Assembly (NCBI RefSeq): GCF_029227855.1
Contig: NZ_CP074356.1
From: Escherichia coli
Lineage (GTDB): Bacteria; Pseudomonadota; Gammaproteobacteria; Enterobacterales; Enterobacteriaceae
DNA length: 64,000 nucleotides
Reading direction: 5' to 3' (one strand)
Shown here: in pieces, positions 1,142 through 27,268 of the stretch
How positions within the stretch are numbered: position 1 is the first letter of the stretch
How the letters are laid out: every line of letters begins with the position of its first letter
The notes under the pieces: generated by a model
What the model saw: the letters and a program-made list of their open reading frames with translations, nothing else
The model's database searches: none
Told to the model about the DNA's origin: nothing
Made by a program: the position numbers and the translations under genes

Positions 1142-1732
1142 ATGATCACCGTTGCCCTTATAGACGATCACCTCATCGTCCGCTCCGGCTTTGCGCAGCT
1201 GCTGGGGCTGGAACCTGATTTGCAGGTAGTTGCCGAGTTTGGTTCGGGGCGCGAGGCGCTGGCGGGGCTGCCGGGGCGCGGTGTGCAGGTGTGTATTTGC
1301 GATATCTCCATGCCCGATATCTCCGGTCTGGAACTGCTAAGCCAGCTGCCGAAAGGTATGGCGACAATAATGCTCTCTGTTCATGACAGTCCGGCGCTGG
1401 TTGAGCAGGCGCTTAACGCGGGGGCACGCGGCTTTCTCTCCAAACGCTGTAGCCCTGACGAACTGATTGCGGCGGTGCATACGGTTGCCACGGGCGGCTG
1501 TTATCTGACGCCGGATATTGCCATTAAACTGGCATCCGGTCGTCAGGACCCGCTAACCAAACGCGAACGGCAGGTGGCGGAAAAACTGGCGCAAGGAATG
1601 GCGGTGAAAGAGATTGCTGCCGAACTGGGCTTGTCGCCGAAAACGGTGCACGTCCATCGCGCCAACCTGATGGAAAAACTGGGTGTCAGTAACGACGTAG
1701 AGCTGGCGCGCCGCATGTTTGATGGCTGGTGA
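1142..1732 (+). CDS. uhpA: Response regulator UhpA (NarL/FixJ family)
   Basis: Receiver domain plus LuxR-type HTH; ATG at 1142 gives 196 aa (ORF track start 1079 is over-extended); stop overlaps uhpB start. Confidence 0.92.
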
Positions 1733-13729: not shown

Positions 13730-14914
13730 CTAAATATCTTTAATAAACAGCAGGCAAATCATCGCAATACCCAACATCCCTATCGCCAGACAGAACAACG
13801 CATGGTAGCTCCAGATTTCAACCATAATTCCGTCAACAGAGCCGGCGATAATCCAGCCGACGCGTGAAGTATTTGCATATAACGTTGTCGCAGAGCCTAT
13901 TTTTTCAGGCATCAAGTCCTGAAAATAAAGCATGCCGATACCACAGAGAATACCAAGGAAGATGGCATTAAGAATTTGCAATTCCAGCTCAACCGCCGGA
14001 GTCGTCGCCATGAGTACGCTGGCGTAAAAACACATTCCACTCACGATAGCAATGAGCATTAATAGTCGCTTGCCAATACGTTTCATGTAATAGCCTGCGA
14101 TTAACATCATCGGAATTTCCAGACCGGCAGCGATACCAATCATTTCTCCAGCCAGTTTATCGGTTAGATGCAGTTCATCAATAATAAATAGCGGCATATT
14201 TATCATGTAGAGATTATTCGCCGCCCACATCATTGAACAGACCACAAAAAGTAGCCGCGTATCCCGCTTCCTGTGGGTGGAGGGTAAAATTTCTACGGGT
14301 TGGGTAACGACAGGAATATTTCTTTGTATTGATGGCAAAAACAACCAGACTATCAGTCCGCAAACAACAAATGCGATGGCTGCGGTGAGATACATCACTT
14401 TAAAACTAAATCCCATTGCCAGTTCATAAGCGAGCGGTGGCCCGATAACCCAGGCAAGCGAGATCTGAGCACGTAAAAATGTACTGAACATGACCGTCTC
14501 ACGGCCTGTTCTGTCGGCGTGTTCACGGGCGAGGGCGAACATTTGCGGGTTTGCGGTGGAAGCAAAACTACTCAGAAGTACGCCCGTTGAGAGGAGAATG
14601 AAGTAGTTGCGATTCCACGCAAAAAGCGTGCAGGCCAGCACTCCAAATAAGCAACATAGCAGAATCAGTAATTTACGGTCGCCTTGTTTATCGGAGTGCC
14701 TTGCCAGAAATTGACTGACCAGAATTCCCATAATAGCGCTACCGGTGAAGAAAAAACCTACCATTATAGGACGGGCTTTCAGTTCATCTGCGAGGAATAT
14801 ACTTAGGGTAGGAGTCTGAAGAGCGCCCGCAATACCCGTCAGAAAGGCGACAAGTAAAAATGCCGCGGCAGTGAGATCAAGTATTTTTGATGGAGTGGTA
14901 GCCGTTTTTTGCAT
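13730..14914 (-). CDS. setC: Sugar efflux transporter SetC (MFS)
   Basis: 394-aa MFS ORF recognised as SetC/YicK. Confidence 0.88.
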   Translation of the reverse strand: MQKTATTPSKILDLTAAAFLLVAFLTGIAGALQTPTLSIFLADELKARPIMVGFFFTGSAIMGILVSQFLARHSDKQGDRKLLILLCCLFGVLACTLFAWNRNYFILLSTGVLLSSFASTANPQMFALAREHADRTGRETVMFSTFLRAQISLAWVIGPPLAYELAMGFSFKVMYLTAAIAFVVCGLIVWLFLPSIQRNIPVVTQPVEILPSTHRKRDTRLLFVVCSMMWAANNLYMINMPLFIIDELHLTDKLAGEMIGIAAGLEIPMMLIAGYYMKRIGKRLLMLIAIVSGMCFYASVLMATTPAVELELQILNAIFLGILCGIGMLYFQDLMPEKIGSATTLYANTSRVGWIIAGSVDGIMVEIWSYHALFCLAIGMLGIAMICLLFIKDI

Positions 14915-15550
14915 TCTTCTGAATCACCGGGCGAAAAAATATAACTGAGTTACAAATAAGTACCAGTCGAATGAGTATTGTATTAAGAATTTTTGAGTAT
15001 CGCTGATACAACCAGAAAGCAATGCTAGCGCAATATTATAGGGCCAGCAATTGAGATTATTAGTAAAAGCATGTTAAGAATTAATTACCGAATTTATATA
15101 TTAATTATAGTAAGGCAATGAGCTATTTTTGATAGTAAAAATAAAACAAGTTGATTTGATATATTAAATGAACAAATTAATCTTGATGGCAGTCTGATTA
15201 TTGGTGAAGTTTATAGTCAGTTTTTTTCGCCAGCGGTTAAAGAAATAGAATAGTCGTATAAAAAAGGGTGTTCTGGGGCGAGTAAAACAACATCTTCACC
15301 TTAATGGCGATACAGTTGGCTGAGAGTCAGCAGGGGGGCAAATCACCTGCAAATAAACACGGCGCATACTGGCGTGAATATCGCGGATGCGTTCGAGGAC
15401 AGAAGAACCGACAGGCGGATTCTTCAGCCGCTCATCGTCCATCACAAAACCTTAGACCAGGTATTCCTGAAGCCGATTGAATATTGAGCAGTAGAAAATA
15501 TCTGGATTGACAGTATTACAAGGGGTTGGAGAACGTCAGGAGAGGCATTT

Positions 15551-15571
15551 TGGCGGAAGATCACAGGAGTC
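15551..15571 (+). repeat. attL: 21-bp direct repeat of the selC 3' end
   Basis: Exact copy of 27174..27194. Confidence 0.8.
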
Positions 15572-15715
15572 AAAATTGACATATAACAATTTGATTTAAA
15601 TCGTTTATATTTTTCTATTCTAATTCATTTATACACATCCTTATACATATAATATCTATCGATTAATTTTTACACGCATCTTCACGCACGTTAACTCAGG
15701 AAAAAAATTTTTTTT

Positions 15716-16012
15716 TCGGAAGAACTGTTCACACTGTTCACCTTTCTGTTTTCTCCTTTTATTTCAGTTGGATAGGTGGTGAATAATGGGTGAAGGGTGA
15801 ACATTCGATTCTTCACCTCCGGCATTCTGCCGGTGTGACTCATACCGGTGATTAATCCCCCGTGCTGAAATCACACCGGAAGAAAAAAGTTTTTTTTGAT
15901 TTGATTGTTCACACTGTTCACCTTTCATTTTTCTCTTTTAATTTCAGTGTGATAACGGGTGAATATACGGTGAAGGGTGAACAGTGGATTGTTCACCTTC
16001 GGGGAATTCAGG
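15716..16012. repeat. crr-like region: two ~110-bp direct repeats with TGTTCACC/GGTGAACA octamer iterons
   Basis: Block gttcacactgttcacctttc...ggtgaagggtgaaca occurs twice (about 15722 and 15903), immediately downstream of the alpha gene; P4 crr has two 120-bp repeats with alpha-binding type I iterons. Confidence 0.7.
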
Positions 16013-16047
16013 GATAAAAAAAGACCGGCAGATGCCGGTCACGTGGG

Positions 16048-18381
16048 TCAGGTTGTTGCAGGGTCGTCACATTTTGGCAGCCAGTCGCCGTAGCTTTCCT
16101 CTTTCAGCGTCAGGTTGGTCTGTATCCCCTGTTTGGTATGGCGCTTCTCGTAATTCAGTCCGTATTCCTTCAGCATCACCGGCAGCCCCAGCCCGAACAT
16201 TTTCAGACTGAGTACATTCCGGTAGCCGTTTGCCTCCATGTAGGCCAGATAGGCGTGATAGAGGTATTTACGGTAATTGCGCGGGATGATACTGGCGTTC
16301 CCCATATACATGCCGCTGGTCTGCGGCAGGGTTTCCAGATAGCCGATAAAATCAAACGTCGGGTCGGCATCCCGTTTGATGTTCAGCGCCTCGTCTGAGT
16401 TCTGCTGGGACTGAAGCAGTGACCGGGCGAGCATCGGGTCGCTGAACTTCTGCATCAGGTGACGCACGATGACCGCCAGCTCGCGGGTGATTTTGTCCTT
16501 AAGTTGCGGGTCGCGCTCCTGCGGGGCTATCTGTTCCGGGAAGTGAATAATCACCCGCCGGCGTGACACGCCGCCGCTGCGGTCGGTGAAGCGCATCGGG
16601 TTATTGTTCACGGCCAGAATCACCGCCGGGATATGCGTGGAGTACGCATCCCGGTATTTCGGGTCAACGGACACTGCATCGCCGCCGGTGATGGCCTTGA
16701 GTCCGGCTCCGTCGCCGCTCCATTTTTCCTGGTCCGGCAGGCGTATCAGTGAGAAGCCAGTTAACGCGGCACGTTCACGCGGGGATTCCAGCGTCTCAAT
16801 GGTGGCCGACGTGGCGTTATCCTCCCCGGCCAGCAGGGTGGCTATTTCGGCCATGATACTTTTGCCGCTGCCGCCGGGACCGGTCACCTCCAGAAAGAGC
16901 TGCCAGTCGTAGCGGTTTGCCAGCACCATAAACAGTGCGGCCAGAATCACGTCGCGTTTTTCCGCACGGCCACCGGCGGCACGGTCAAGCCAGCGCCAGA
17001 ACGCGGGGGCGTGGGTCTCCAGCGTTTCCCCTTCCACCGGCGGGGTGAAATCCACATCGCACAGGGTGCGCATCCAGTGTGACGGACTGTGCGGGTGGAA
17101 CGTGCCGTTCTGCGTGTCGAGCACGCCGTTACGAAAGCCAATCAGGCGGCGGGAGGGGGCTTCCTGCTGCGGAATAATCAGCTTCAGGGTGTCCACCACG
17201 GAGGCCACCTTCCCGGAGGAGAACGGCGCGCGCAGACGCTGAAACAGCCCGGCCACATCCCGGGCAAAGTCCTGTGGCGGCAGCACCTTCCAGACACCAT
17301 TTTCATAGCGGGACAGAAGCTGGCCGTTGGCATCGACCGCGAGCGCCTCGCCGTAATGCTCATAGATACGCATGGCCTTTTCGCTGGTACTCATGGCGGA
17401 AAACTCCGCTTCGCTCATGGTGTCGAACGGGCTTTCAGCCGGTGGCCGGATGGCATCATAAATGGCCTTACGGGTGGCTTCCCCGCCGTACTGCGTGAAG
17501 GCATCATTCCAGTCACCGAAGACCGGCGGCAGGGCAACAACACCTTCACACGCATCTGCGGCTGCGGCGGCTTTTTTCTGGCCGTCACCACTGAGGTCAC
17601 GGTCAGCGGCAAGGACAATCTGACAGGCGGGGTGCTTCTGCCGGGCAAGGCTGGCCAGAGAAAGGAGGTTCACGGAAGAAAGCGCCACCATCACCGTTTC
17701 ACCGGTCAGGTGATGTACGGTAAGTGCGGTCGCGTATCCCTCCGCTATCCACAGACGTTTTCCGGCCTGATTCTGTCCTTCAAGGGTGTGACAGGTGCCC
17801 CTGACCTGTCCGCCTTTCAGGGTGCGCTTACGGCCGTCAGCACTGATTAACTGAAGGTTAACCAGTTCGCCGCTGTCGTCATACAGTGGCACCACAAGGT
17901 CACCGGCGCGCCAGCTCACGCCACCGGCTCTGTGTGTGCCGGTCAGCATCCGGCATTCCCGGCCGGGAAAGCCCTTGCGGGTCAGGTAGGCGTTACCGGT
18001 TCCGGTACGGGTTTTCGCCATCAGGGTTTGTGCCAGTGCGGCGGCGTTCTTCCGGGCAGCGTCTGTTTCAGCACCGGCGGCGGCCGTCACTGCCGGGTCA
18101 GCCGGGGGCAGGCTGCCGGTCACGGCAGCCACCTTTGCGGCCGCGTCGGACGGGGAAACACCAAACACCTTTTCAACCAGTTTCAGGCCGTCACCGGCAC
18201 CACACTGATTGCAGTACCAGGTGCCGCGCCCCTCCCTGTCATCAAAACGGAAGCGGTCACTCCCGCCACAGACCGGACAGGGCTGATGACGGTTCTTCAG
18301 CACCTGAATCCCCAGCGCCGGGAGAATACGCGGCCAGTGGCCGAGCGCATGGCTGACGGTGGCGGTTACGTTCATTTTCAT
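16048..18381 (-). CDS. P4 alpha-like DNA primase/helicase
   Basis: 777-aa ORF; N-terminal zinc-finger primase motif CPVCGGSDRFRFDD...YCNQCG; Walker A GPGGSGKS in the C-terminal helicase part; same length as P4 alpha. Confidence 0.9.
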   Translation of the reverse strand: MKMNVTATVSHALGHWPRILPALGIQVLKNRHQPCPVCGGSDRFRFDDREGRGTWYCNQCGAGDGLKLVEKVFGVSPSDAAAKVAAVTGSLPPADPAVTAAAGAETDAARKNAAALAQTLMAKTRTGTGNAYLTRKGFPGRECRMLTGTHRAGGVSWRAGDLVVPLYDDSGELVNLQLISADGRKRTLKGGQVRGTCHTLEGQNQAGKRLWIAEGYATALTVHHLTGETVMVALSSVNLLSLASLARQKHPACQIVLAADRDLSGDGQKKAAAAADACEGVVALPPVFGDWNDAFTQYGGEATRKAIYDAIRPPAESPFDTMSEAEFSAMSTSEKAMRIYEHYGEALAVDANGQLLSRYENGVWKVLPPQDFARDVAGLFQRLRAPFSSGKVASVVDTLKLIIPQQEAPSRRLIGFRNGVLDTQNGTFHPHSPSHWMRTLCDVDFTPPVEGETLETHAPAFWRWLDRAAGGRAEKRDVILAALFMVLANRYDWQLFLEVTGPGGSGKSIMAEIATLLAGEDNATSATIETLESPRERAALTGFSLIRLPDQEKWSGDGAGLKAITGGDAVSVDPKYRDAYSTHIPAVILAVNNNPMRFTDRSGGVSRRRVIIHFPEQIAPQERDPQLKDKITRELAVIVRHLMQKFSDPMLARSLLQSQQNSDEALNIKRDADPTFDFIGYLETLPQTSGMYMGNASIIPRNYRKYLYHAYLAYMEANGYRNVLSLKMFGLGLPVMLKEYGLNYEKRHTKQGIQTNLTLKEESYGDWLPKCDDPATT

Positions 18382-18395
18382 GGTGTTGTTCTCCT

Positions 18396-18716
18396 TCAGT
18401 GCAGTACCGGCGCTTTTATGTGACGGGCACAGAGTTCATCCATCACAACCAGCCCGAGAAAGGACAGCGACGGCGCGGCCTTCAGGGGGCCGGATTCCAT
18501 TAAATCTTCCAGCAGGGCACAGGCTATCTGACGCCCTTTTTCCTCACCGTGCTGGCGCAGATAAAAGCCTTCCAGCTCAGCGGCGATGGCCGCCTCCAGT
18601 GATTCAAGGGTGAGATGCGGGTAGCGGTGCTGACGTTCGCACACGGTCAGCCAGGCACAGGCGACAGCGCGACGGTAAAGGGCAGCGCGTAAGACGGGCG
18701 GTAAGGGTGTTTTCAT
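18396..18716 (-). CDS. Hypothetical protein (P4-like left operon, 106 aa)
   Basis: ORF immediately upstream of and co-directional with alpha; no recognised motif. Confidence 0.5.
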
Positions 18717-18851
18717 TTGCTTTCCTCCCTGTGACAGATGACTGCATTCCGTGCCGGTTGCATTAACTGATAAGGCATATCTGCGTCTCCTGAAGACGTG
18801 CGTATCCCTGCGCGAATACGCACATTTAATTTTTCGGGTGTCGTTTTTTAA

Positions 18852-19307
18852 TTACAGATAATTGCGGTAACTGTTATCCGGGGTGATTTCCGGGTCAGGC
18901 TCCGTGCGGGGAATTTCCCGCCATTCCCGCGCCACCTGTGCCGCCCGGCTGACCGGAACAGGGTCCTGCGGGTAAATATCCAGATATTTCTCCCGCCATT
19001 TCTGTAATTCCGGGTCTCCGGCCATTTCTTTCAGTACCGCATGCCGGTTTACGGGGCTGCGTCTGAACAGGTCAGGACGGTCACAGGTAAATTCCCGCAG
19101 AAAACGCCCCAGCGGGATGTCTGTGGTGCGCCCGTCAGCGAGGATACGCACAAGGATACTGAATTTACGGCGGTACGGGTTCCAGACAATGTCCGGGCAG
19201 CGGTACGGCATTTCCCACGGAATACCGTCTTCCAGAATGCCGACCACGGCCACATCGGGAAAACCGGCAGAACGGTAAATCTCACCGGGCTGGGGAAAAT
19301 CAAACAT
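18852..19307 (-). CDS. Hypothetical protein (151 aa; same length as P4 orf151)
   Basis: Co-directional ORF in the left operon; protein-like composition. Confidence 0.55.
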   Translation of the reverse strand: MFDFPQPGEIYRSAGFPDVAVVGILEDGIPWEMPYRCPDIVWNPYRRKFSILVRILADGRTTDIPLGRFLREFTCDRPDLFRRSPVNRHAVLKEMAGDPELQKWREKYLDIYPQDPVPVSRAAQVAREWREIPRTEPDPEITPDNSYRNYL

Positions 19308-19872
19308 GCGTCCTGTCTCCCCGGTCTTTCTGCTGGGCGAGAAAATCGCGGCACAGGCCTTTGGCTTTCAGCTCATTCAGCACAAAATCAATATCTTCAT
19401 TCAGGTAACTGAAAATATGCGGAATGTAGAGCTGATGCAGGCCGGAGAGTTCACGGTGAATCAAATCACCCCCAACAAACTGGGATACGGCGCTGGCGCG
19501 GTTGAGCTTATGGTAAGCCTCAATGCTGAGGTGTTCACGGGCGTCATGACGTGCTGAGACGGTCTGAGGGGCTTTTTTATTACGCACGGGACACCTCCAC
19601 CACCGGCAGACGGGCAGCAAGGGAGAGCACATAGTCACGGACAAGGGAACGGCGGGCACTGCGTTCATCACCGGCCACGGTGCGAAGCATACAGATACGG
19701 GGATGACGGTCTGCGCGACGGACAGCCGCAAACACAAAGACAAATTCAGGGTGTGAGGGGGTAAGGGTTGTAGCCATGATGGCAGCCTCCTGTGAATAGC
19801 AAATAACGCTATCGCCGGAGTTCTCACGCTCGATGGCGATAGCCCAGACGGGGGTGAGAATACCGGCTTCAC
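19300..19872 (-). CDS. Hypothetical protein, start uncertain
   Basis: C-terminal ~85 aa look protein-like; the N-terminal part is P/S/L/R-rich and overlaps another frame; putative GTG start. Confidence 0.3.
19580..19777 (-). CDS. Hypothetical small protein (65 aa; C-terminal part of the 214-aa ORF)
   Basis: Internal ATG ([12 protein letters not shown]...) gives a compact ORF ending at the stop at 19580; the upstream part of the 214-aa ORF overlaps vis and is probably not coding. Confidence 0.25.
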
Positions 19873-20175
19873 AGGATACCGGCCAGCCCGGAGGCTGCCC
19901 CGCCTGAGCTACCATTGACTCTGCGGCATAATGAGCGGACGCGGGCAGGATGCACGGAATGCCATCTGCACGACTGACCACACACCACACCATAATCTGG
20001 CGCTCTGTGGCATTGATTGCGACACAAAAAAAGACGCGTGGCGCGTCATATGTCGCCTGTGAATTGCTCGGGTTCTCACGCCCGGCTGCCGATTTTGCGG
20101 CAGCGGAAAAACTATATCCGCAAATGCCGGAAAAAGGCAAGCCAGAAAAAGGGAGTTTTTGCAGAGCGGGCATCA

Positions 20176-20442
20176 TCATGCGTCGTACCCCCGTTTGCGT
20201 CCGGCAATGCGTCCGGCCATCCATGCGGTGACTTCAGAGTGCAGCCAGGCCACATTTTTACCGCCAAGACTCACCTGCGGCGGAAATTCCCCCTTACGGA
20301 TGAGTTCATAGATGGTCGAGCGTGACAGGCCGCACAGGTGCATCACTTCCGGCAGACGTAAAAAACGCTCCTGCGTGATGTCCGGCAGCGGCATCAGTGG
20401 CGTCACTGGGGCGGGAGACGGGGAAGAAAAAACAGATTGCAT
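20176..20442 (-). CDS. AlpA/Vis-family phage transcriptional regulator (88 aa)
   Basis: AlpA-type HTH signature FLRLPEV...[15 protein letters not shown]; same length as P4 Vis (orf88). Confidence 0.78.
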
Positions 20443-20545
20443 CGGGCTACCTCGTTAATGTCCATACAGCACCGGATAAGTCCGTCCGGCTTCGGGTAGC
20501 GCTTTATTTTGTGAATATTTTCGGCAGACGCAACAGGGGGGGATT

Positions 20546-20563
20546 TGTTCCGGCAGTCTTACA
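20546..20563. promoter_or_regulatory. TGT-N12-ACA site (Ogr/Delta-type activator box), candidate leftward late promoter
   Basis: TGTtccggcagtcttACA ~110 bp upstream of the vis start; P2/P4 late promoters carry TGT-N12-ACA centred near -55. Confidence 0.4.
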
Positions 20564-20719
20564 ATGGCTGTGTATTTTTTGTACATCAGCGCCAGATAGC
20601 TTTAAAACGCTCTGGAAGGAGCTGGAAAAAATTATAGTGAAATACAAATTGTTTTTTCTTATTTATTTCAGTGAATTAATAAAAATAAAAAGTAATGAAC
20701 AGCACAAAAAGCCCATTAA

Positions 20720-20830
20720 CGGGTGAACAGTGGTGAACAGACGGTGAACAGTCATTACTGCGATTGTTCACCCTTTAACTTACTGTATTACTTATCTTTT
20801 TTCTTATGGTGAACAGAGGTGAACAGTAAA
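20720..20830. repeat. ori-like cluster of GGTGAACAG iterons
   Basis: Five direct copies and one inverted copy of GGTGAACA(G) within ~110 bp, ~4.8 kb from the crr-like repeats, as in P4. Confidence 0.65.
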
Positions 20831-20904
20831 ATATAAAAAAACAAACAGTAAGCCGGTTTTTCCTGCGACCTTTTCCTGGCTTGCCGGTCTGAGGATGAGT
20901 CTCC

Positions 20905-20922
20905 TGTGTCAGGGCTGGCACA
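20905..20922. promoter_or_regulatory. TGT-N12-ACA site, candidate Psid late promoter activator box
   Basis: TGTgtcagggctggcACA centred ~80 bp upstream of the sid ATG. Confidence 0.45.
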
Positions 20923-20994
20923 TCTGCAATGCGTCGTGTTGTTGTCCGGTGTACGTCACAATTTTCTTAACCTGAAGTGACGAGGAGCCGGAAA

Positions 20995-21729
20995 ATGTCT
21001 GACAACACCATCCCTGAATATCTGCAACCCGCGCTGGCACAACTGGAAAAGGCCAGAGCCGCCCATCTTGAGAACGCCCGCCTGATGGATGAGACCGTCA
21101 CGGCCATTGAACGGGCAGAGCAGGAAAAAAATGCGCTGGCGCAGGCCGACGGAAACGACGCTGACGACTGGCGCACGGCCTTTCGTGCAGCCGGTGGTGT
21201 CCTGAGCGACGAGCTGAAACAGCGCCACATTGAGCGCGTGGCACGCCGGGAGCTGGTACAGGAATATGACAATCTGGCCGTGGTGCTGAATTTTGAACGT
21301 GAACGCCTGAAAGGGGCGTGTGACAGCACGGCCACCGCCTACCGGAAGGCACATCATCACCTGCTGAGTCTGTATGCAGAGCATGAGCTGGAACACGCCC
21401 TGAATGAAACCTGTGAGGCGCTTGTCCGGGCAATGCATCTGAGCATTCTGGTACAGGAAAATCCGCTCGCCAACACCACCGGCCATCAGGGCTACGTCGC
21501 ACCGGAAAAGGCTGTCATGCAGCAGGTGAAATCATCGCTGGAACAGAAAATAAAACAGATGCAAATCAGCCTCACCGGCGAGCCGGTTCTCCGGCTGACC
21601 GGACTGTCAGCGGCAACACTCCCGCACATGAATTATGAGGTGGCAGGCACACCGGCACAGCGCAAGGTGTGGCAGGACAAAATAGACCAGCAGGAAGCAG
21701 AGCTTAAGGCCAGAGGGCTGCTGTCATGA
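20995..21729 (+). CDS. sid: P4 Sid-like capsid size determination (external scaffold) protein
   Basis: 244 aa from MSDNTIPEY; coiled-coil-rich; first gene of the sid-delta-psu arrangement. Confidence 0.78.
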   Translation: MSDNTIPEYLQPALAQLEKARAAHLENARLMDETVTAIERAEQEKNALAQADGNDADDWRTAFRAAGGVLSDELKQRHIERVARRELVQEYDNLAVVLNFERERLKGACDSTATAYRKAHHHLLSLYAEHELEHALNETCEALVRAMHLSILVQENPLANTTGHQGYVAPEKAVMQQVKSSLEQKIKQMQISLTGEPVLRLTGLSAATLPHMNYEVAGTPAQRKVWQDKIDQQEAELKARGLLS

Positions 21730-22226
21730 TTTACTGCCCGTCGTGTGGACATGTTGCTCACACCCGTCGCGCACATTTCATGGACGATGGCACCAAGATA
21801 ATGATTGCACAGTGCCGGAATATTTATTGCTCTGCGACATTTGAAGCGAGTGAAAGCTTTTTCTCTGACTGTAAAGATTCAGGAATGGAATACATTTCAG
21901 GCAAACAGAGATACCGCGATTCACTGACGTCGGCCTCCGGCAGTATGAAACGCCCGAAAAGAATGCTTGTTACCGGATATTGTTGTCGGAGATGTAAAGG
22001 CCTTGCACTGTCAAGAACATCGCGGCGTCTGTCTCAGGAAGTCACCGAGCGTTTTTATGTGTGCACGGATTCGGGCTGTGGTCTGGTGTTTAAAACGCTT
22101 CAGACCATCAACCGCTTCATTGTCCGCCCGGTCACACCGGACGAACTGGCAGAACGCCTGCATGAAAAACAGGAACTGCCGCCAGTACGGTTAAAAACAC
22201 AATCATATTCGCTGCGTCTGGAATGA
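21726..22226 (+). CDS. delta: P4 Delta-like late-gene activator (tandem Ogr-type zinc fingers)
   Basis: 166 aa; two Ogr-like Cys motifs (CPSCGH...CRNIYC and CCRRCKG...CTDSGC); start overlaps sid stop. Confidence 0.88.
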   Translation: MIYCPSCGHVAHTRRAHFMDDGTKIMIAQCRNIYCSATFEASESFFSDCKDSGMEYISGKQRYRDSLTSASGSMKRPKRMLVTGYCCRRCKGLALSRTSRRLSQEVTERFYVCTDSGCGLVFKTLQTINRFIVRPVTPDELAERLHEKQELPPVRLKTQSYSLRLE

Positions 22227-22299
22227 GGGCTGCCGGTTAACCCCGGCCGTCGCCGCACACCGTATTTTTATTCTTCAGCATGATGAGAAAGAGATAACG

Positions 22300-22872
22300 A
22301 TGGAAAGCACAGCCTTACAGCAGGCCTTTGACACCTGTCAGAATAACAAAGCAGCATGGCTGCAACGCAAAAATGAGCTGGCAGCGGCCGAACAGGAATA
22401 CCTGCGGCTTCTGTCAGGAGAAGGCAGAAACGTCAGTCGCCTGGACGAATTACGCAATATTATCGAAGTCAGAAAATGGCAGGTGAATCAGGCCGCCGGT
22501 CGTTATATTCGTTCGCATGAAGCCGTTCAGCACATCAGCATCCGCGACCGGCTGAATGATTTTATGCAGCAGCACGGCACAGTACTGGCGGCCGCACTGG
22601 CACCGGAGTTGATGGGCTACAGTGAACTGACGGACATTGCCCGAAACTGTGCCATACAGCGTGCCACAGATGCCCTGCGTGAAGCCCTTCTGTCCTGGCT
22701 TGCGAAGGGGGAAAAAATTAATTATTCCGCACAGGATAGCGACATTTTAACGACCATCGGATTCAGGCCTGACGCGGCTTCGGTGGATGACAGCCGTGAA
22801 AAATTCACCCCTGCGCAGAACATGATTTTTTCGCGTAAAAGTGCGCAACTGGCATCACATCAGTCTGTGTAA
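22300..22872 (+). CDS. psu: P4 Psu-like polarity suppression / capsid decoration protein
   Basis: 190-aa ORF following delta; same length and position as P4 Psu. Confidence 0.78.
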   Translation: MESTALQQAFDTCQNNKAAWLQRKNELAAAEQEYLRLLSGEGRNVSRLDELRNIIEVRKWQVNQAAGRYIRSHEAVQHISIRDRLNDFMQQHGTVLAAALAPELMGYSELTDIARNCAIQRATDALREALLSWLAKGEKINYSAQDSDILTTIGFRPDAASVDDSREKFTPAQNMIFSRKSAQLASHQSV

Positions 22873-23036
22873 AACTCCCCGAAAATCCGTCCGATTTTAC
22901 TGAAAAAAGCCATGCATCGATAAGGTGCATGGCTTTGCATGCGTTTCCCTGCCTCATTTTCTGCAAACCGCGCCATTCCCGGCGCGGTCTGAGCGTGTCT
23001 GTGCAACTGCATTAAAACCGCCCTGCAAAGCGGGCG

Positions 23037-23055
23037 GGCGAGGCGGGGAAAGCAC
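23037..23055 (+). other. P2/P4-type cos site
   Basis: Exact 19-mer GGCGAGGCGGGGAAAGCAC, the P2/P4 cohesive-end sequence as I recall it, between psu and the cargo operon. Confidence 0.78.
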
Positions 23056-23076
23056 TGCGCGCACGAGAGTAAAACA

Positions 23077-23739
23077 TTACTCAATTGAAAAATGTAACAT
23101 TCCTCTCTCTCTCGGTGTAATGGTGTTGGGATGAACTAACCGTTCCATTTCAAAACCAAAATCATGATAAGCAGTATTATAAAAAGAGCTTAAAATAAAT
23201 TTCACAAACGTTACCGGACATAATGGTGACGACAATGGTATCCGGCAATTTTTAAACTGACCTAGGGTTAGGTGTGCTGCTGGATGAATAACATCATTAG
23301 CGTCATCAGGGGCATAATCCACTCGTATCGGAACGGGTAAAATTGATTTTTGGACAATGTCAGCATAAAAGTTGCTTTCGTCTAAATATAACTCAGGGTC
23401 ATTCTGGAATGATTCGTAATTAGGCGCGGGGAAATAACATAGTCTTTCTTTTACAAGTTTCATTCGACGATCAAACTGAAATAAAAGATGGAGTAACCCA
23501 CCATCTAATAATTTGATATTATATTGCCTTTTTTCGTCCAAGAAGTTATAGATATCAACATACTCAATATTTCTTAATGCAATTGAAGTATCAGCGAATC
23601 CGCTATAGCTGACATAATAATATTCTTTATCCCGTGTTATTACAGGATAGTTTTGTGCGTCACTGATACCCACTGATATCAGATGAGATGTGATTTTTCT
23701 AATTGCTGCGCAAATGCTACTTGAGTTCATCTCATTCAC
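23077..23739 (-). CDS. Hypothetical protein, second gene of the satellite cargo operon (candidate defense partner/effector)
   Basis: 220-aa ORF; start overlaps or lies 1 nt after the stop of the upstream helicase-like gene; AT-rich; no recognisable catalytic motif or TM segment. Confidence 0.7.
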   Translation of the reverse strand: MNEMNSSSICAAIRKITSHLISVGISDAQNYPVITRDKEYYYVSYSGFADTSIALRNIEYVDIYNFLDEKRQYNIKLLDGGLLHLLFQFDRRMKLVKERLCYFPAPNYESFQNDPELYLDESNFYADIVQKSILPVPIRVDYAPDDANDVIHPAAHLTLGQFKNCRIPLSSPLCPVTFVKFILSSFYNTAYHDFGFEMERLVHPNTITPRERGMLHFSIE

Positions 23740-25828
23740 CCTTCAGTTGCTTAATTAAAGCAAGGCGTAATTCTTCTGGTATATCTTCAACTCTAACTTG
23801 TCCATCCAATAGAACCATGAGATTATGGGCGTTCAATTTAGCTTGGTGTACTCTTTTTCTCTCTTGAGAAGTCATATCCCTGTTCACCAGTCGCATTTTT
23901 TTACGCTCTGCTTCTGTTGGGTATGTAAATTCCAGTTTAAATCCTCTTTGTTTCACCTCATTGTATTCGTTAATCAGGCCATCAAAGGAAGAACCCACAC
24001 CACATACACGAAGCCATGCTTTAGTTCTTGTCATTGCAGTAAAAAGGATATTTCTACGCTTTGCCAGTTCATAATCCACGTTGCAATAATGAGCATCCAT
24101 GATGTATACCATAGCTGCTTCGTTTCCCTTTGCTCTGAATATGGATGTAAATGTTACACTATTGTCTGAGAAAAACTCATCAGGAGAGCTTGTAATTCCA
24201 GCTATAGATGTATTAATTCCGTTTTGGAATAAAAGGTCACGCAGATAACCTACTTCATTTCTCATACGTATTGTATCTGGGTGAATTACAACAATGTCGC
24301 TAGGTAATATCTCTTCCTCATGAATATTTTTAAATATTTCCTGCGCAATCCAATTAGATTGAGAATGCTTGTCTTCAAATTTAACAAACTGGATCATCTC
24401 ATCAATTGAGTTATGTGCACTCAATAGGGATGGGCTAGATTTCGTTGTCCTTGATAATATAACCTCCTTTCCCTCAACTAATTCACCATCTATTTTTTCA
24501 TAACCAATCTCTGTCCATAATCCTTCAAAATCAAACATCTGAATTATTGGTTTATGATAAATACCAAACCCTAAAGCATGAGCCGTGGTTAAGATTGGGC
24601 CTGGATTTCGATAACAAATGTCTAAAGTTATATCTTGTTCTTCACTGGTGAAACTAACAATTGGTTTTCCATGCTCGTCTACTCCCCAAATTTGTTCAGG
24701 AGAAGGCATGGATGAATCCCCAAGATTTTGTAATTCATCATAAGCGTAAACTAATCGTTTCTTTTCCCCTAGCAAAGAATAACATATGCGGAGAAACTCA
24801 ATTGAAAAATCTTGAGCCTCATCAATAAGGATGAAATCATATAATTTCTTATCTTCTTTTTTATTATCGAGGAAGTTCTTACAGGCAGCCTGAAAAGGTG
24901 TTTCATTAAATTCTGCAAGACGACGTGCGCCGTTATAATCGTAATAAGGTATATTATGTGCCACACATGCGTTGTAATATAAACCTTCTGTTTTAGAGCC
25001 GCCCCAGGCATGAATAATGTCTACGTTATCCCAATCAATTCCATTATCATCTGCGAATGCTGAGACTAAATGTTTTAGTTGCTCTTTGAGAGAGCGACTA
25101 TTGAAAGTAACTGCTATTTTCCAGTGAGGATTTTGTGAGTGTATATGTGCAATTTTTCGAGCGAGAACAATAGTCTTACCTGAGCCAGCAAGCCCACGAA
25201 TCCTTTGGACATTATCAATATTGACCAAGACGGCAGTCGTTTGACTAGAATCAAGAGTGGCAAGTGAATTCTCCAATTTTTTTAGTACGCTACCCTTTGA
25301 GTCAATCTGTCTGACATAGCTTCTTTTTCTCTTGGGCTTCAATTTTGAAAGTGATTGAACATGGGATAGTAAAGTTTCAAGAAGGGAACCATCATCCCAG
25401 GTAATGTCATTGAGAATAGATAATATTTCATCAACATTGGAACTAATGCTTAAACCACTGTCACAATCAAAATCATCAATATTTATACAGTTTGGTGCGA
25501 AAACAATACTGTTCACAGGTACGTTTAATATTCTGTTTTTAGTCAGTGCTTTTACTTCAGAAAGTTTTGCGACGAATTTCATGTGCATTTCGTCAATGAT
25601 ATCAATATCATCTTGGGTTAACTCTCTTTCCTCATTGAAATGGAAAATGACAACACCATGCTTTGATGAGCAAATTAGACCATCAAGAGTAACATTGTTT
25701 TCGCTTAGAAAAATAACAGGAAAACCGCGATAATAATATCCAGTTATATCATTTATCTTTCTTATTGAATTTTCTAGAATATCAGAAACAGTATGATTCT
25801 GAGGTTTCATTCCCAATATTTCAATCAT
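23732..25828 (-). CDS. SF1 (UvrD-like) helicase-family ATPase with ~200-aa N-terminal domain of unknown function; candidate defense protein
   Basis: 698 aa; Walker A GLAGSGKT (res ~212-219), motif II LIDEAQDF (res ~334-341), C-terminal FRAKGNEAAMVYI and FTAMTRTKAWL resembling UvrD-like helicase C-terminal motifs; GGAG Shine-Dalgarno 8 nt before the ATG; start overlaps the int stop. Confidence 0.85.
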   Translation of the reverse strand: MIEILGMKPQNHTVSDILENSIRKINDITGYYYRGFPVIFLSENNVTLDGLICSSKHGVVIFHFNEERELTQDDIDIIDEMHMKFVAKLSEVKALTKNRILNVPVNSIVFAPNCINIDDFDCDSGLSISSNVDEILSILNDITWDDGSLLETLLSHVQSLSKLKPKRKRSYVRQIDSKGSVLKKLENSLATLDSSQTTAVLVNIDNVQRIRGLAGSGKTIVLARKIAHIHSQNPHWKIAVTFNSRSLKEQLKHLVSAFADDNGIDWDNVDIIHAWGGSKTEGLYYNACVAHNIPYYDYNGARRLAEFNETPFQAACKNFLDNKKEDKKLYDFILIDEAQDFSIEFLRICYSLLGEKKRLVYAYDELQNLGDSSMPSPEQIWGVDEHGKPIVSFTSEEQDITLDICYRNPGPILTTAHALGFGIYHKPIIQMFDFEGLWTEIGYEKIDGELVEGKEVILSRTTKSSPSLLSAHNSIDEMIQFVKFEDKHSQSNWIAQEIFKNIHEEEILPSDIVVIHPDTIRMRNEVGYLRDLLFQNGINTSIAGITSSPDEFFSDNSVTFTSIFRAKGNEAAMVYIMDAHYCNVDYELAKRRNILFTAMTRTKAWLRVCGVGSSFDGLINEYNEVKQRGFKLEFTYPTEAERKKMRLVNRDMTSQERKRVHQAKLNAHNLMVLLDGQVRVEDIPEELRLALIKQLKGE

Positions 25829-27011
25829 TTTGAACTCCGGTAGATAAATTCATCAAAAAATCCGAGTATTTTTGCATCATATATTTTCTTTTATCAAGAT
25901 ACAAAGCATGATTATATGTGCCTCGGATAGTATTCTTATCAACATGTGCGAGCTGAATCTCAATCCATGCGCTCTCAAATCCCATTTCATGAAGAATTGT
26001 CGATAGTGTATGCCTAAAACCATGACCAGTAGTTCTTCCCTTATAACCTAATGATTCAATAACTTGGTTTACACTTTCTTTGCTTATCGGTTTTCTACGA
26101 TCATTTCTGCCAATAAAAACATAGGGATAGTCCGATGTTATCGGTTGTAGTTGTTTAAACAGTTCAATTACCTGAGATGATAAAGGTACTATATGTGGCC
26201 GACGCATTTTCATCCGTTCAGCAGGTATTTCCCAGATACCTTTTATCAAATCAATTTCACTCCAAGTTGCAAAACGCATTTCCTGCGTCCTGACTCCTGT
26301 CATCATTAGGATCTTGGTTGCGTTTTTGGTAATAATACTTCCAGTATATGACTCTAGATCTCTAACAAAATGAGGTAGCTCTTCCGCGGATAAAAACGGA
26401 TGATGCCTTTGCTTGGGAATAGCCAAAGCGATTGCTAAATCAGGCGCCGGATTGTATTCAGCACGGCCAGTGATGATCGCGTAGCGAAACACTTCTCCAC
26501 ATCGTTGGCGAACTTTTCTGGTTTTCTCCAACGCTCCACGTTTTTCGATGCGCTTAAGTACTTCAAGCAGTTCTAATGGCTTAATTTCAGATATTGGGCG
26601 TTTACCAATGAAAGGAAAAACGTCCTGTTCGAATGTTTTAATAATTTCCTCCCGATAAGCGATAGTCCAGCGATCTGCTTTTGCTGCATGCCATTCTCTG
26701 CTAACTGACTCAAAAGAATTTTCAGTTGATAATTTTTGAGCAAGTTTCTGAGCCTTCCGTTCTTCTACTGGGTCTATGCCGTTTGCTACCTGCTTACGTG
26801 CAGTATCACGTTTCTCTCGTGCTTCTGCGAGGCTAACAAGTTCGTAACTACCAAATGACATTAGCCGTGCTTTACCGGCGAAACGAAAGCGGAAGCGCCA
26901 GCCCTTTGAACCGTCTGGCTTGATGAGTAGTGACAAACCGTGCCCATCATTCATTGTATATGGTTTGTCTTGTGGTTTTGCGCGTTTGATTTGTATATCG
27001 GTTAGAGCCAT
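25821..27011 (-). CDS. int: P4-type tyrosine integrase
   Basis: 396 aa; catalytic HGFRHT...(R)...Y motifs in the C-terminus; N-terminal P4-integrase-like region; lies next to selC. Confidence 0.93.
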   Translation of the reverse strand: MALTDIQIKRAKPQDKPYTMNDGHGLSLLIKPDGSKGWRFRFRFAGKARLMSFGSYELVSLAEAREKRDTARKQVANGIDPVEERKAQKLAQKLSTENSFESVSREWHAAKADRWTIAYREEIIKTFEQDVFPFIGKRPISEIKPLELLEVLKRIEKRGALEKTRKVRQRCGEVFRYAIITGRAEYNPAPDLAIALAIPKQRHHPFLSAEELPHFVRDLESYTGSIITKNATKILMMTGVRTQEMRFATWSEIDLIKGIWEIPAERMKMRRPHIVPLSSQVIELFKQLQPITSDYPYVFIGRNDRRKPISKESVNQVIESLGYKGRTTGHGFRHTLSTILHEMGFESAWIEIQLAHVDKNTIRGTYNHALYLDKRKYMMQKYSDFLMNLSTGVQND

Positions 27012-27173
27012 GTGTATAACTGAAAACTGCGTATGAAGATTCTATACACATTACTATACATATTTTTCGCGGATTCAGGGAGATGATCTCGGACTATTAC
27101 GGACAAGATGATTATTTATGATATTGAATATAAAGGATTTTATGGAGTATCTCGGAACTGGCTGGATGAAGTT

Positions 27174-27268
27174 TGGCGGAAGATCACAGGAGTCGAACCT
27201 GCCCGGGACCGCTGGCGGCCCCAACTGGATTTGAAGTCCAGCCGCCTCACCGGAGACGACGATCTTCC
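27174..27268 (-). tRNA. selC: tRNA-Sec (selenocysteine tRNA, UCA anticodon)
   Basis: 95-nt match to the selC sequence as I recall it, on the minus strand, including long variable arm and CCA end. Confidence 0.93.

What the first reader, a model, noticed from the sequence alone, without database searches (positions are those of the whole stretch)
18396..20175. Unresolved left-operon/immunity region with overlapping frames, possibly including a noncoding immunity RNA
Between alpha and the Vis-like gene the ORF track gives overlapping, partly implausible ORFs (P/S/R-rich N-termini, a 214-aa ORF overlapping vis). In P4 the equivalent region encodes kil, eta, the small CI immunity RNA with its seq target sites, epsilon and orf151, so part of this stretch (roughly 19780..20175) may be noncoding regulatory RNA rather than protein. 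Two of the ORFs match the lengths of P4 orf151 and, as I recall, orf106, but I cannot verify their identity.
Basis: inference. Interest (0 to 1): 0.5.

Follow-up and report, generated by a model that had tools for sequence, protein, structure and literature searches.

The report
Phage P4 immunity RNA region
This stretch is a 99%-identical copy of the well-studied immunity and early-gene region of satellite phage P4, where a small antisense RNA and an overlapping translated reading frame control the satellite's replication genes, so it is real but already explained.

Summary
Window 18382..20500 matches phage P4 (NC_001609 6970..9088) with 21 substitutions and no indels. None of them falls between 19677 and 20103.

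All features are on the minus strand:
- orf106 (probably cnr), 18396..18716
- orf151, 18852..19307
- epsilon, 19300..19587, GTG start, 95 aa
- kil, 19580..19777, 65 aa, Icd-like
- CI immunity RNA, about 19835..19913 (Rfam C4, 74.9 bits)
- IsrK-like leader carrying seqA, 20027..20104 (69.7 bits)
- promoter PLE, 20111..20140
- vis, 20176..20442

The P/S-rich 190-aa ORF is a spurious extension of epsilon.

The "implausible" 214-aa ORF is P4 eta. Its conserved start is the ATG at 20179, which overlaps the vis stop. It stays open in relatives (0 in-frame stops against 114 and 163 in the other frames). Its first 134 codons evolve almost neutrally (pN/pS 0.85, against 0.33 for kil).

So the DNA is both an RNA module and a translated frame. 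Across 58 distinct relatives, the two CI recognition elements covary with both of their target sites in 24 specificity classes.

Verdict: already known, low interest. One side note: the Pfam "Ash" family appears to be a translation of this RNA module.

The parts
18396..18716 (-). orf106, 106 aa, DUF5375. Probably P4 cnr, the copy-number regulator.
   Evidence: Identical to P4 ORF106. RefSeq names it DUF5375. phrog_5991 matches full length at 2.4e-55. The cnr assignment rests on my recollection of Terzano et al. 1994. It fits PMC8628076, which places cnr in the conserved family between epsilon and alpha.
18852..19307 (-). orf151, 151 aa, function unknown.
   Evidence: 147 of 151 residues identical to P4 ORF151. 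phrog_10748 matches full length at 4.8e-100. No NCBIfam hit.
19300..19587 (-). epsilon, the helper-prophage derepression protein. 95 aa, GTG start. The 190-aa ORF 19300..19872 is a spurious 5' extension of it.
   Evidence: 94 of 95 residues identical to P4 epsilon. Pfam PF25738 Derepression matches 1-95 of 95 at 8.4e-51. The upstream 95 codons of the 190-aa ORF hit no family and overlap kil and the CI RNA in another frame.
19580..19777 (-). kil, 65 aa, Icd-like cell-division inhibitor. It is the first translated gene downstream of PLE and is nested in-frame in eta.
   Evidence: Identical to P4. NCBIfam NF033153 phage_ICD_like scores 76.1 bits against a cutoff of 25. A GGAGG plus ATG start is conserved in relatives. 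This is the only part of the long ORF with a coding signature: third-position entropy ratio 2.42 and pN/pS 0.33.
19580..20179 (-). eta, 199 aa from the conserved ATG at 20179. The 214-aa ORF from 20224 is the same frame. It runs through PLE, the leader, CI and seqC, and ends as kil.
   Evidence: The ATGA overlap with the vis stop is conserved in most relatives, and many have a stop codon just upstream of this ATG. Over 29 representatives there are 0 stops in frame against 114 and 163 in the other two frames. RefSeq calls the same 199-aa CDS. Codons 1-134 have pN/pS 0.85 and no codon periodicity. PMC10111431 section 20 describes eta, Kil and the translational coupling.
19781..19831 (-). Downstream target region (seqC). 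b2 is GUGAGAA at 19827..19821. a2 is UUCACAGGA at 19796..19788 and overlaps the kil Shine-Dalgarno sequence. GGAGGCUGCC at 19790..19781 is also complementary to CI.
   Evidence: Exact complementarity to CI elements. Both targets change together with the CI elements across 24 specificity classes.
19835..19913 (-). CI immunity RNA, about 79 nt, a member of Rfam C4. Element a is the loop (U)CCUGUGAA at 19876..19868. Element b (seqB) is UUCUCAC at 19860..19854.
   Evidence: Rfam RF01695 scores 74.9 bits against a gathering score of 45, over 19832..19919. Predicted fold is -49.5 kcal/mol with a long closing stem and two hairpins. In 18 relatives, 100% of 486 pair cells form standard pairs and 4 pairs show compensatory changes. 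The sequence is identical to P4. The exact ends are my recollection of the published 79-nt species.
20027..20104 (-). Leader of the PLE transcript, an IsrK-like 'SeqA RNA'. It carries the upstream targets b1 (GUGAGAA, 20079..20073) and a1 (UUCACAGG, 20063..20056). It ends in a terminator-like hairpin at 20047..20033 followed by a U-run.
   Evidence: Rfam RF01394 isrK scores 69.7 bits against a gathering score of 50. RF03163 c4-a1b1 scores 49.5 against 46.7. The terminator scan finds the hairpin. PMC3632133 and PMC4825925 equate IsrK with P4 seqA.
20111..20140 (-). PLE, the constitutive early promoter: TTGCCT, 18-nt spacer, TATAGT. The start site is inferred near G20104.
   Evidence: It is the only sigma-70-like site found in 18300..20800. 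Its -10 coincides with the '-10 consensus' annotated in X02534. The isrK model begins at 20104.
20176..20442 (-). vis (P4 ORF88, AlpA-type excisionase and regulator). Its stop codon overlaps the eta start.
   Evidence: 86 of 88 residues identical to P4 ORF88. phrog_2790 and phrog_66, excisionase and transcriptional regulator.
20546..20563 (.). TGT-N12-ACA dyad upstream of vis, a candidate Ogr/Delta activator site for the late promoter PLL.
   Evidence: Pattern match. The motif occurs at chance frequency in the window (13 found, 14.3 expected), so the assignment rests on position, on P4 identity, and on my knowledge of P2/P4 late promoters.

Best explanation
This is the immunity and early ('left') operon of a P4-type satellite prophage, essentially P4 itself.

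In the lysogen:
- The constitutive promoter PLE (20140..20111) transcribes a leader (20104..20027) and the CI precursor.
- Processing releases the roughly 79-nt CI RNA (19913..19835).
- CI pairs through two short elements, the hairpin-2 loop 'a' and the single-stranded junction 'b' (seqB).
- Matching sites lie in the leader (seqA) and just upstream of the kil ribosome-binding site (seqC) on nascent PLE transcripts.
- This blocks kil translation and causes premature termination. As a result kil, epsilon, orf151, orf106/cnr and the alpha primase are not expressed.

When the late promoter PLL upstream of vis is activated:
- Ribosomes finishing vis re-initiate at the overlapping ATG of eta (20179).
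- They translate straight through PLE, the leader, CI and seqC into kil.
- That translation, not the peptide, overrides termination and lets the operon be read.

Shown here: identity to P4, the RNA family matches, the CI fold with compensatory changes, three-way covariation of CI with both targets, a conserved open eta frame with near-neutral codons 1-134, and a coding signature confined to kil.

Taken from the literature or inferred: CI processing, Rho dependence and position of the terminator, PLL activation, and the actual pairing in vivo.
For: Identity to P4:
- 99.0% ungapped identity to P4 6970..9088, with the P4 annotation of ORF106, ORF151, epsilon, 'cI' and ORF88.
- No substitution between 19677 and 20103, so CI, seqA and seqC are P4's own.

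RNA elements:
- Rfam C4, isrK and c4-a1b1 all score above gathering. C4 scored above gathering in 20 of 20 relatives, isrK in 19 of 20 and c4-a1b1 in 8 of 20.
- PLE is the only promoter-like site, and a terminator-like hairpin closes the leader.
- CI fold: 100% of 486 cells paired, 4 compensatory pairs, and 30-52% paired when the partners are slid.
- CI elements are complementary to two upstream and two downstream sites, and the downstream one overlaps the kil Shine-Dalgarno sequence.
- In 58 distinct relatives there are 24 (a,b) classes. Element b matches both targets in 24 of 24, and element a in 22 of 24.

Reading frames:
- eta has 0 stops in frame against 114 and 163 in the other frames, and a conserved ATGA junction with vis.
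- pN/pS is 0.85 for codons 1-134 and 0.33 for kil.
- The position-3 entropy ratio is 0.84-1.13 upstream and 2.42 in kil.
- kil is Icd-like.

Literature:
- PMC10111431 section 20
- PMC4825925 section 21
- PMC3632133
Against: Nothing in the sequence contradicts this reading. The limits are as follows.
- No expression data exist for this copy.
- The primary papers (Sabbattini 1995, Forti 1999) could not be read. The CI ends, the Rho-dependent terminator position and the PLL start site rest on secondary summaries and my memory.
- Single 7-nt complementarities are expected by chance about 3.7 times in this transcript, by my own calculation. The pairing claim therefore rests on the covariation, not on the matches alone.
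- Two of the 24 classes lack a 7-nt or longer match for element a at one or both targets.
- The role of the leader's terminator-like hairpin in P4 is unclear to me.
Confidence: 0.95

Rival explanations
1. Purely protein-coding reading, as in database annotation. The long ORF encodes a functional 'cI transcriptional repressor' or 'Ash/Icd-like' protein along its whole length, and no RNA regulator is involved.
For: RefSeq annotates a 137-aa 'transcriptional repressor' in P4 and a 199-aa 'Icd-like protein' in E. coli copies. Pfam Phage_ASH matches residues 37-161 at 1.3e-23. PHROGs label the family 'transcriptional repressor'. The frame is conserved open.
Against: Codons 1-134 show no third-position excess and have pN/pS 0.85, against 0.33 for kil. 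The conserved blocks coincide with Rfam C4 and isrK, with compensatory stem changes. Covariation runs between RNA elements, not along a protein. The literature reports that the immunity factor is an RNA.
Confidence: 0.02
2. Purely non-coding reading. The stretch 19780..20175 is only RNA and promoter, and the 214/199-aa ORF is a chance open frame of GC-rich DNA that is never translated.
For: There is no amino-acid-level constraint upstream of kil. The N-terminal 15 codons of the 214-aa version are not conserved.
Against: The frame has 0 stops across 29 representatives at 95% identity or less, with 12 different lengths that all preserve the frame. The other two frames carry 114 and 163 stops. 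The ATG overlapping the vis stop (ATGA) is conserved. Experimental work summarised in PMC10111431 says eta translation prevents termination.
Confidence: 0.03
3. Inactive remnant. The element is a decaying P4-like island, and the region, although P4-like in sequence, no longer functions.
For: Expression cannot be tested here. The element carries a different integrase, attachment site (selC) and cargo from P4.
Against: All left-operon ORFs are intact, with 0 to 4 amino-acid changes. The RNA module is identical to P4. alpha, sid, delta, psu and int are full length.
Confidence: 0.05

Closest known systems
Satellite phage P4 immunity region and left operon (PLL-vis-eta[PLE-seqA-cI-seqC-kil]-epsilon-orf151-orf106/cnr-alpha)
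   Same: 99.0% nucleotide identity with no indels, the same gene order, and identical CI RNA, seqA, seqC, kil and orf106. By sequence it would have P4's own immunity specificity.
   Different: There are 21 substitutions, giving 4 aa changes in orf151, 1 in epsilon, 2 in vis and 1 in eta. A GC-to-CG swap at 20104-20105 restores the first base pair of the leader hairpin. All 23 distinct relatives examined share that G, so the P4 reference is the outlier. The rest of the element differs from P4: it is integrated at tRNA-SeC with another integrase and a DUF2290+helicase cargo.
Other P4-like satellites with different immunity specificities (for example retronphage phiR73, from my own knowledge)
   Same: The architecture is the same. 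CI elements a and b each match one upstream and one downstream target.
   Different: Their a and b elements differ. There are 24 combinations among 58 distinct IMG/VR sequences, and they appear to be reassorted independently. This copy belongs to the P4 class.
Phage P1/P7 c4-icd-ant immunity module (Rfam C4 and c4-a1b1)
   Same: A processed antisense RNA pairs with two-part targets upstream and at the ribosome-binding site of an Icd-type gene, which controls downstream genes. The Rfam families are the same and kil is an Icd homologue.
   Different: In P1 the downstream gene is an antirepressor (ant), not a replication and helper-derepression operon. P4 adds the eta frame coupled to vis, driven from a second, late promoter.
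Salmonella Gifsy-1 IsrK-orf45-anrP
   Same: The leader is a structural homologue of IsrK (69.7 bits). PMC4825925 states that IsrK is a structural homologue of P4 SeqA RNA.
   Different: IsrK acts in trans to activate translation of orf45/anrP. In P4 the leader is described as a target of CI.

Membership tests
Rfam RF01695 C4 antisense RNA (P4 CI RNA) | Covariance-model score at or above the gathering score of 45 bits, full-length match. | tested here: met
   74.9 bits, model positions 1-87 of 87, at 19832..19919 on the minus strand.
Rfam RF01695 C4 antisense RNA (P4 CI RNA) | A long closing stem and two internal hairpins, supported by compensatory changes. | tested here: met
   100% of 486 cells paired, 4 pairs with changes on both sides, and 30-52% paired when the partners are slid. 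MFE is -49.5 kcal/mol.
Rfam RF01394 isrK / RF03163 c4-a1b1 (P4 seqA leader) | Score at or above the gathering score, and location upstream of the C4 gene on the same strand. | tested here: met
   69.7 bits against 50, and 49.5 bits against 46.7, at 20027..20117, which is 108 nt upstream of CI.
P4-type RNA immunity system | The antisense RNA is complementary to one site upstream (seqA) and one site downstream (seqC) in the same transcript. | tested here: met
   Exact matches for both CI elements at both sites. Covariation across 24 classes.
P4-type RNA immunity system | A constitutive promoter (PLE) directly upstream of the leader, lying inside the eta frame. | tested here: met
   TTGCCT-18-TATAGT at 20140..20111, the only such site in the region. 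It coincides with the annotated -10. Promoter activity was not tested.
P4-type RNA immunity system | First translated gene kil (Icd-like) nested in a longer frame, eta, that starts upstream of PLE and is coupled to vis/alpA. | tested here: met
   kil is identical to P4 and Icd-like. The eta frame is open and the ATGA junction is conserved. PMC10111431 section 20.
P4-type RNA immunity system | CI is produced by processing of the PLE transcript, and CI-dependent (Rho-dependent) premature termination occurs. | not testable with these tools
   This needs a northern blot, term-seq or in vitro transcription. It is known for P4 only from the literature.
Pfam PF10554 Phage_ASH as a protein domain | Amino-acid-level purifying selection over the matched residues. 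| tested here: not met
   The HMM matches residues 37-161 of the 214-aa ORF. Those codons have pN/pS of about 0.8 and no third-position excess within the P4-like family. The match spans exactly the leader, CI and seqC.
Pfam PF25738 Derepression protein (P4 epsilon) | Full-length HMM match. | tested here: met
   Residues 1-95 match model 1-95 of 95 at 8.4e-51.

The most novel reading that the evidence does not exclude
The 'Ash protein family' (Pfam PF10554, the PGAP name 'ash family protein', and the PHROG label 'transcriptional repressor') may not be a protein domain at all. It may be the conceptual translation of the conserved IsrK-like leader plus C4/CI RNA module.

In P4-like satellites the frame is kept open only so that ribosomes can run through it (eta). 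Its first 134 codons drift almost neutrally.

A practical consequence follows. The 'epsilon' marker used to define P4-like satellites (PF10554 in PMC8628076) actually detects the immunity RNA region, not the epsilon derepressor gene.
Probability: 0.55. Interest if true: 0.3.

Novelty: already known. Interest (0 to 1): 0.1.

Why it matters
For the scan, this closes the finding. The 'unresolved' overlapping frames are the textbook P4 immunity region, and every piece can be named.

Its general value is as a worked example of DNA that is both a set of regulatory RNAs and a translated frame. Gene callers and protein-family databases label such DNA as ordinary proteins ('transcriptional repressor', 'Ash family', 'Icd-like 199 aa').

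The comparative data gathered on the way could be useful to people who annotate or classify P4-like satellites and P1-like phage-plasmids:
- 24 immunity specificity classes with matched changes at three sites
- near-neutral evolution of the eta N-terminus
- PF10554 hitting the RNA module rather than epsilon

None of this changes the known mechanism.

Tried and rejected
- Primary papers: Forti 1999 and Sabbattini 1995 are not held. Three literature searches with generic terms returned nothing useful.
- RNAduplex sliding scan of CI against the transcript: dominated by GC-rich spurious duplexes and uninformative. I replaced it with exact-complement k-mer search plus covariation.
- TGT-N12-ACA as evidence for PLL: the motif occurs at chance frequency in the window (13 found, 14.3 expected). 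I keep it only as a positional hint.
- orf151-orf106 intergenic hairpins (18785..18823): the fold z-score is -1.94 and 7 of 200 shuffles fold as well. The scan finds no terminator there, so I do not claim a feature.
- RsmY-like match at 22906..23024: 20.5 bits against a gathering score of 57, E = 0.13. Treated as chance.
- The 214-aa start at 20224 is rejected as the real start. Many relatives have a stop codon immediately upstream of the ATG at 20179.
- The old '137-aa cI protein' (P4 annotation) is rejected. It is an internal piece of the eta frame.

Full report
**1. What is there**

- a 106-aa ORF at 18396..18716
- a 151-aa ORF at 18852..19307
- a 190-aa ORF at 19300..19872 with a P/S-rich N-terminus
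- a 214-aa ORF at 19580..20224 that overlaps vis

A distant BLASTN search of 18382..20500 against phage records gives phage P4 (X51522 / NC_001609, 6970..9088) at 99.0% over 100% of the query, in one piece.
- A base-by-base comparison finds 21 substitutions and no indels.
- None of the substitutions lies between 19677 and 20103.
- P4 homology covers window 15702..23036 at 98.2%.

**2. Naming the proteins**

I used the P4 annotation and the fixed offset (window = P4 + 11412).
- **orf106** is identical to P4 ORF106 and is a DUF5375 protein. It is probably cnr. That is my recollection, and it is consistent with PMC8628076.
- **orf151** has 4 substitutions.
- **epsilon** is the 95-aa GTG-start gene at 19300..19587, with 1 substitution. 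It matches Pfam PF25738 'Derepression' end to end.
- **The 190-aa ORF** is therefore epsilon plus a spurious upstream extension. The extension hits nothing.
- **The 214-aa ORF** has a 65-aa in-frame 3' part at 19580..19777. That part is identical to P4, has a GGAGG-ATG start, and is an Icd-like protein (NCBIfam NF033153, 76.1 bits). This is P4 kil.
- **eta** is the full frame. PMC10111431 section 20, summarising Forti et al. 1999, makes these statements:
  - eta contains a constitutive internal promoter and the CI and seqA sites.
  - Kil is a truncated form of Eta.
  - eta translation prevents termination.

**3. The RNAs**

cmscan of 15000..24000 gives three matches above gathering score, all on the minus strand:
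- C4 (RF01695) at 19832..19919, 74.9 bits
- isrK (RF01394) at 20027..20104, 69.7 bits
- c4-a1b1 (RF03163) at 20065..20117, 49.5 bits

PMC3632133 and PMC4825925 state that these families are the structural equivalents of P4 CI RNA and seqA.

Promoter and terminator:
- The only sigma-70-like site in 18300..20800 is TTGCCT-18-TATAGT at 20140..20111 on the minus strand.
- Its -10 coincides with the -10 annotated in X02534. This is PLE.
- A GC-rich hairpin with a T-run at 20047..20033 closes the leader.

The 79-nt CI candidate (19913..19835) folds into a long closing stem with two hairpins at -49.5 kcal/mol. In an alignment with 17 relatives:
- All 486 pair cells are standard pairs.
- Four pairs show changes on both sides.
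- Sliding the partners drops pairing to 30-52%.

**4. The pairing scheme**

Exact-complement search shows two CI elements, each with one upstream and one downstream target.

| CI element | Sequence and position | Upstream target | Downstream target |
|---|---|---|---|
| b | UUCUCAC, 19860..19854 | GUGAGAA, 20079..20073 | GUGAGAA, 19827..19821 |
| a | hairpin-2 loop (U)CCUGUGAA, 19876..19868 | UUCACAGG, 20063..20056 | UUCACAGGA, 19796..19788 |

- The downstream target of element a overlaps the kil Shine-Dalgarno sequence.
- The 10-mer GGAGGCUGCC at 19790..19781 also matches CI at 19899..19890.
- Single 7-mers are expected by chance a few times, so I tested covariation instead.

A viral-contig scan with Eta gave 79 loci at 52-100% identity. 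Among 58 distinct sequences there are 24 (a,b) combinations.
- Element b is perfectly matched at both targets in 24 of 24.
- Element a is matched at both targets in 22 of 24.

This three-way covariation is strong comparative support for the published antisense mechanism. It shows that this copy has P4's own specificity.

**5. RNA or protein?**

The answer is both.

The frame is kept open:
- In 29 representatives (95% identity or less), the part of the eta frame upstream of kil contains 0 stops.
- The other two frames contain 114 and 163 stops.
- This holds across 12 different lengths.
- The ATG overlapping the vis stop (ATGA) is conserved in most representatives.
- RefSeq calls the same 199-aa CDS, including in a relative that is 69% identical.

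The peptide is not constrained upstream of kil:

| Segment | Third-position to first/second-position entropy ratio | Pooled Nei-Gojobori pN/pS |
|---|---|---|
| eta codons 1-134 | 0.84-1.13 | 0.85 |
| kil | 2.42 | 0.33 |

So the frame is selected to stay open, but the amino-acid sequence upstream of kil is not. This fits the report that translation itself is the function.

**6. Mechanism**

Steps shown here:
- identity to P4
- the RNA folds
- the target covariation
- the open frame coupled to vis
- the coding signature confined to kil

Steps taken from the literature or inferred:
- PLE is constitutive, and CI is cut out of its transcript.
- CI pairing with seqA and seqC blocks kil translation. 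This causes premature, Rho-dependent termination, so epsilon, orf151, cnr and alpha stay silent.
- The late promoter PLL upstream of vis is activated by helper Ogr or P4 Delta. A TGT-N12-ACA dyad lies at 20546..20563, but that motif is at chance frequency.
- Ribosomes coupled from vis into eta translate over the RNA module and override termination.

**7. Comparison and novelty**

This is P4, not merely P4-like, so the finding is already known.

Differences from the reference are minor.
- The GC/CG swap at 20104-20105 restores the first base pair of the leader hairpin.
- All 23 distinct relatives examined share that G, and none has the P4 reference's version. The P4 reference is probably in error or carries a laboratory-strain variant.

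Related systems are the P1/P7 c4-icd-ant module and Gifsy-1 IsrK.

**8. Side observations**

- Pfam Phage_ASH (PF10554) matches residues 37-161 of the 214-aa ORF. That is nt 20116..19742, exactly the leader + CI + seqC.
- In a P1-like plasmid, a 39-aa RefSeq 'ash family protein' CDS (L084 1510..1629) lies on the C4 RNA gene (1506..1593).
- PMC8628076 lists PF10554 as its 'epsilon' profile. Epsilon itself matches PF25738 instead.
- The element is integrated at tRNA-SeC (27174..27268) with its own integrase (25821..27011). It carries a DUF2290 + helicase pair (23077..25828) in the cargo hotspot.
- The 691-nt core has a match in 2837 of 5426 complete E. coli genomes. In 1395 of them the match covers at least 80% of the query.

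**9. Verdict**

Novelty: already known. Interest is low.

Noticed in passing
window 19742..20116 (-); also L084 1506..1629: Pfam PF10554 Phage_ASH matches exactly the stretch that encodes the IsrK-like leader, the CI RNA and seqC. Those codons evolve almost neutrally. In a P1-like plasmid, a 39-aa RefSeq 'ash family protein' CDS sits on the C4 RNA gene. The 'Ash' protein family may be a translated shadow of an RNA module.
   Followed up: partly
window 19300..19587 versus 19580..20179: PMC8628076 lists PF10554 as the profile for the P4 'epsilon (Ash)' component. Here epsilon matches PF25738 Derepression, and PF10554 matches the neighbouring eta frame. That satellite marker therefore seems to detect the immunity region rather than epsilon.
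   Followed up: partly
loci L005-L083 (IMG/VR), positions about 1560-1900: P4-like satellites fall into at least 24 immunity-specificity classes. Each class is defined by two short CI elements that change together with both of their targets. The two elements appear in different combinations, which suggests modular reassortment. Two classes (for example L026 and L064) lack a 7-nt or longer match for element a at one or both targets.
   Followed up: partly
window 20104..20105: The window has CG where the P4 reference has GC on the plus strand. The window version completes the first base pair of the leader hairpin. All 23 distinct relatives examined share that G, and none has the P4 reference's version. 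The 1984/1990 P4 reference is probably in error here. In P4 the change gives Pro41 instead of Ala41 in the 214-aa frame.
   Followed up: yes
window 23077..27268: Beyond the end of P4 homology (23036), the element carries a DUF2290 protein (220 aa) and a 698-aa helicase. These match PADLOC models PDLC02999 and PDLC03002. Next come a 396-aa ORF (25821..27011) in the integrase position and tRNA-SeC (27174..27268). So this is a P4-type satellite at selC, with defence-type cargo in place of P4's gop/beta/cII.
   Followed up: partly
window 15296..15702: P4 homology starts at 15702, which is the start of P4 crr. P4's attP core (P4 4078-4097) is not part of the homologous block. The left end of the element, next to the MFS transporter gene at 13730..14914, was not mapped.
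   Followed up: no
window 18785..18823 (-): Two adjacent hairpins lie in the 135-nt gap between orf151 and orf106. X02534 also marks this as a region of dyad symmetry. The fold is not clearly better than shuffles (z = -1.94) and no T-run follows. Function unknown.
   Followed up: partly
E. coli genome search with window 19560..20250: The immunity core has a match in 2837 of 5426 complete E. coli genomes, and 1209 of the matching places are on plasmids (P1-like C4 modules). RefSeq annotates none of the inspected copies with an RNA feature.
   Followed up: partly
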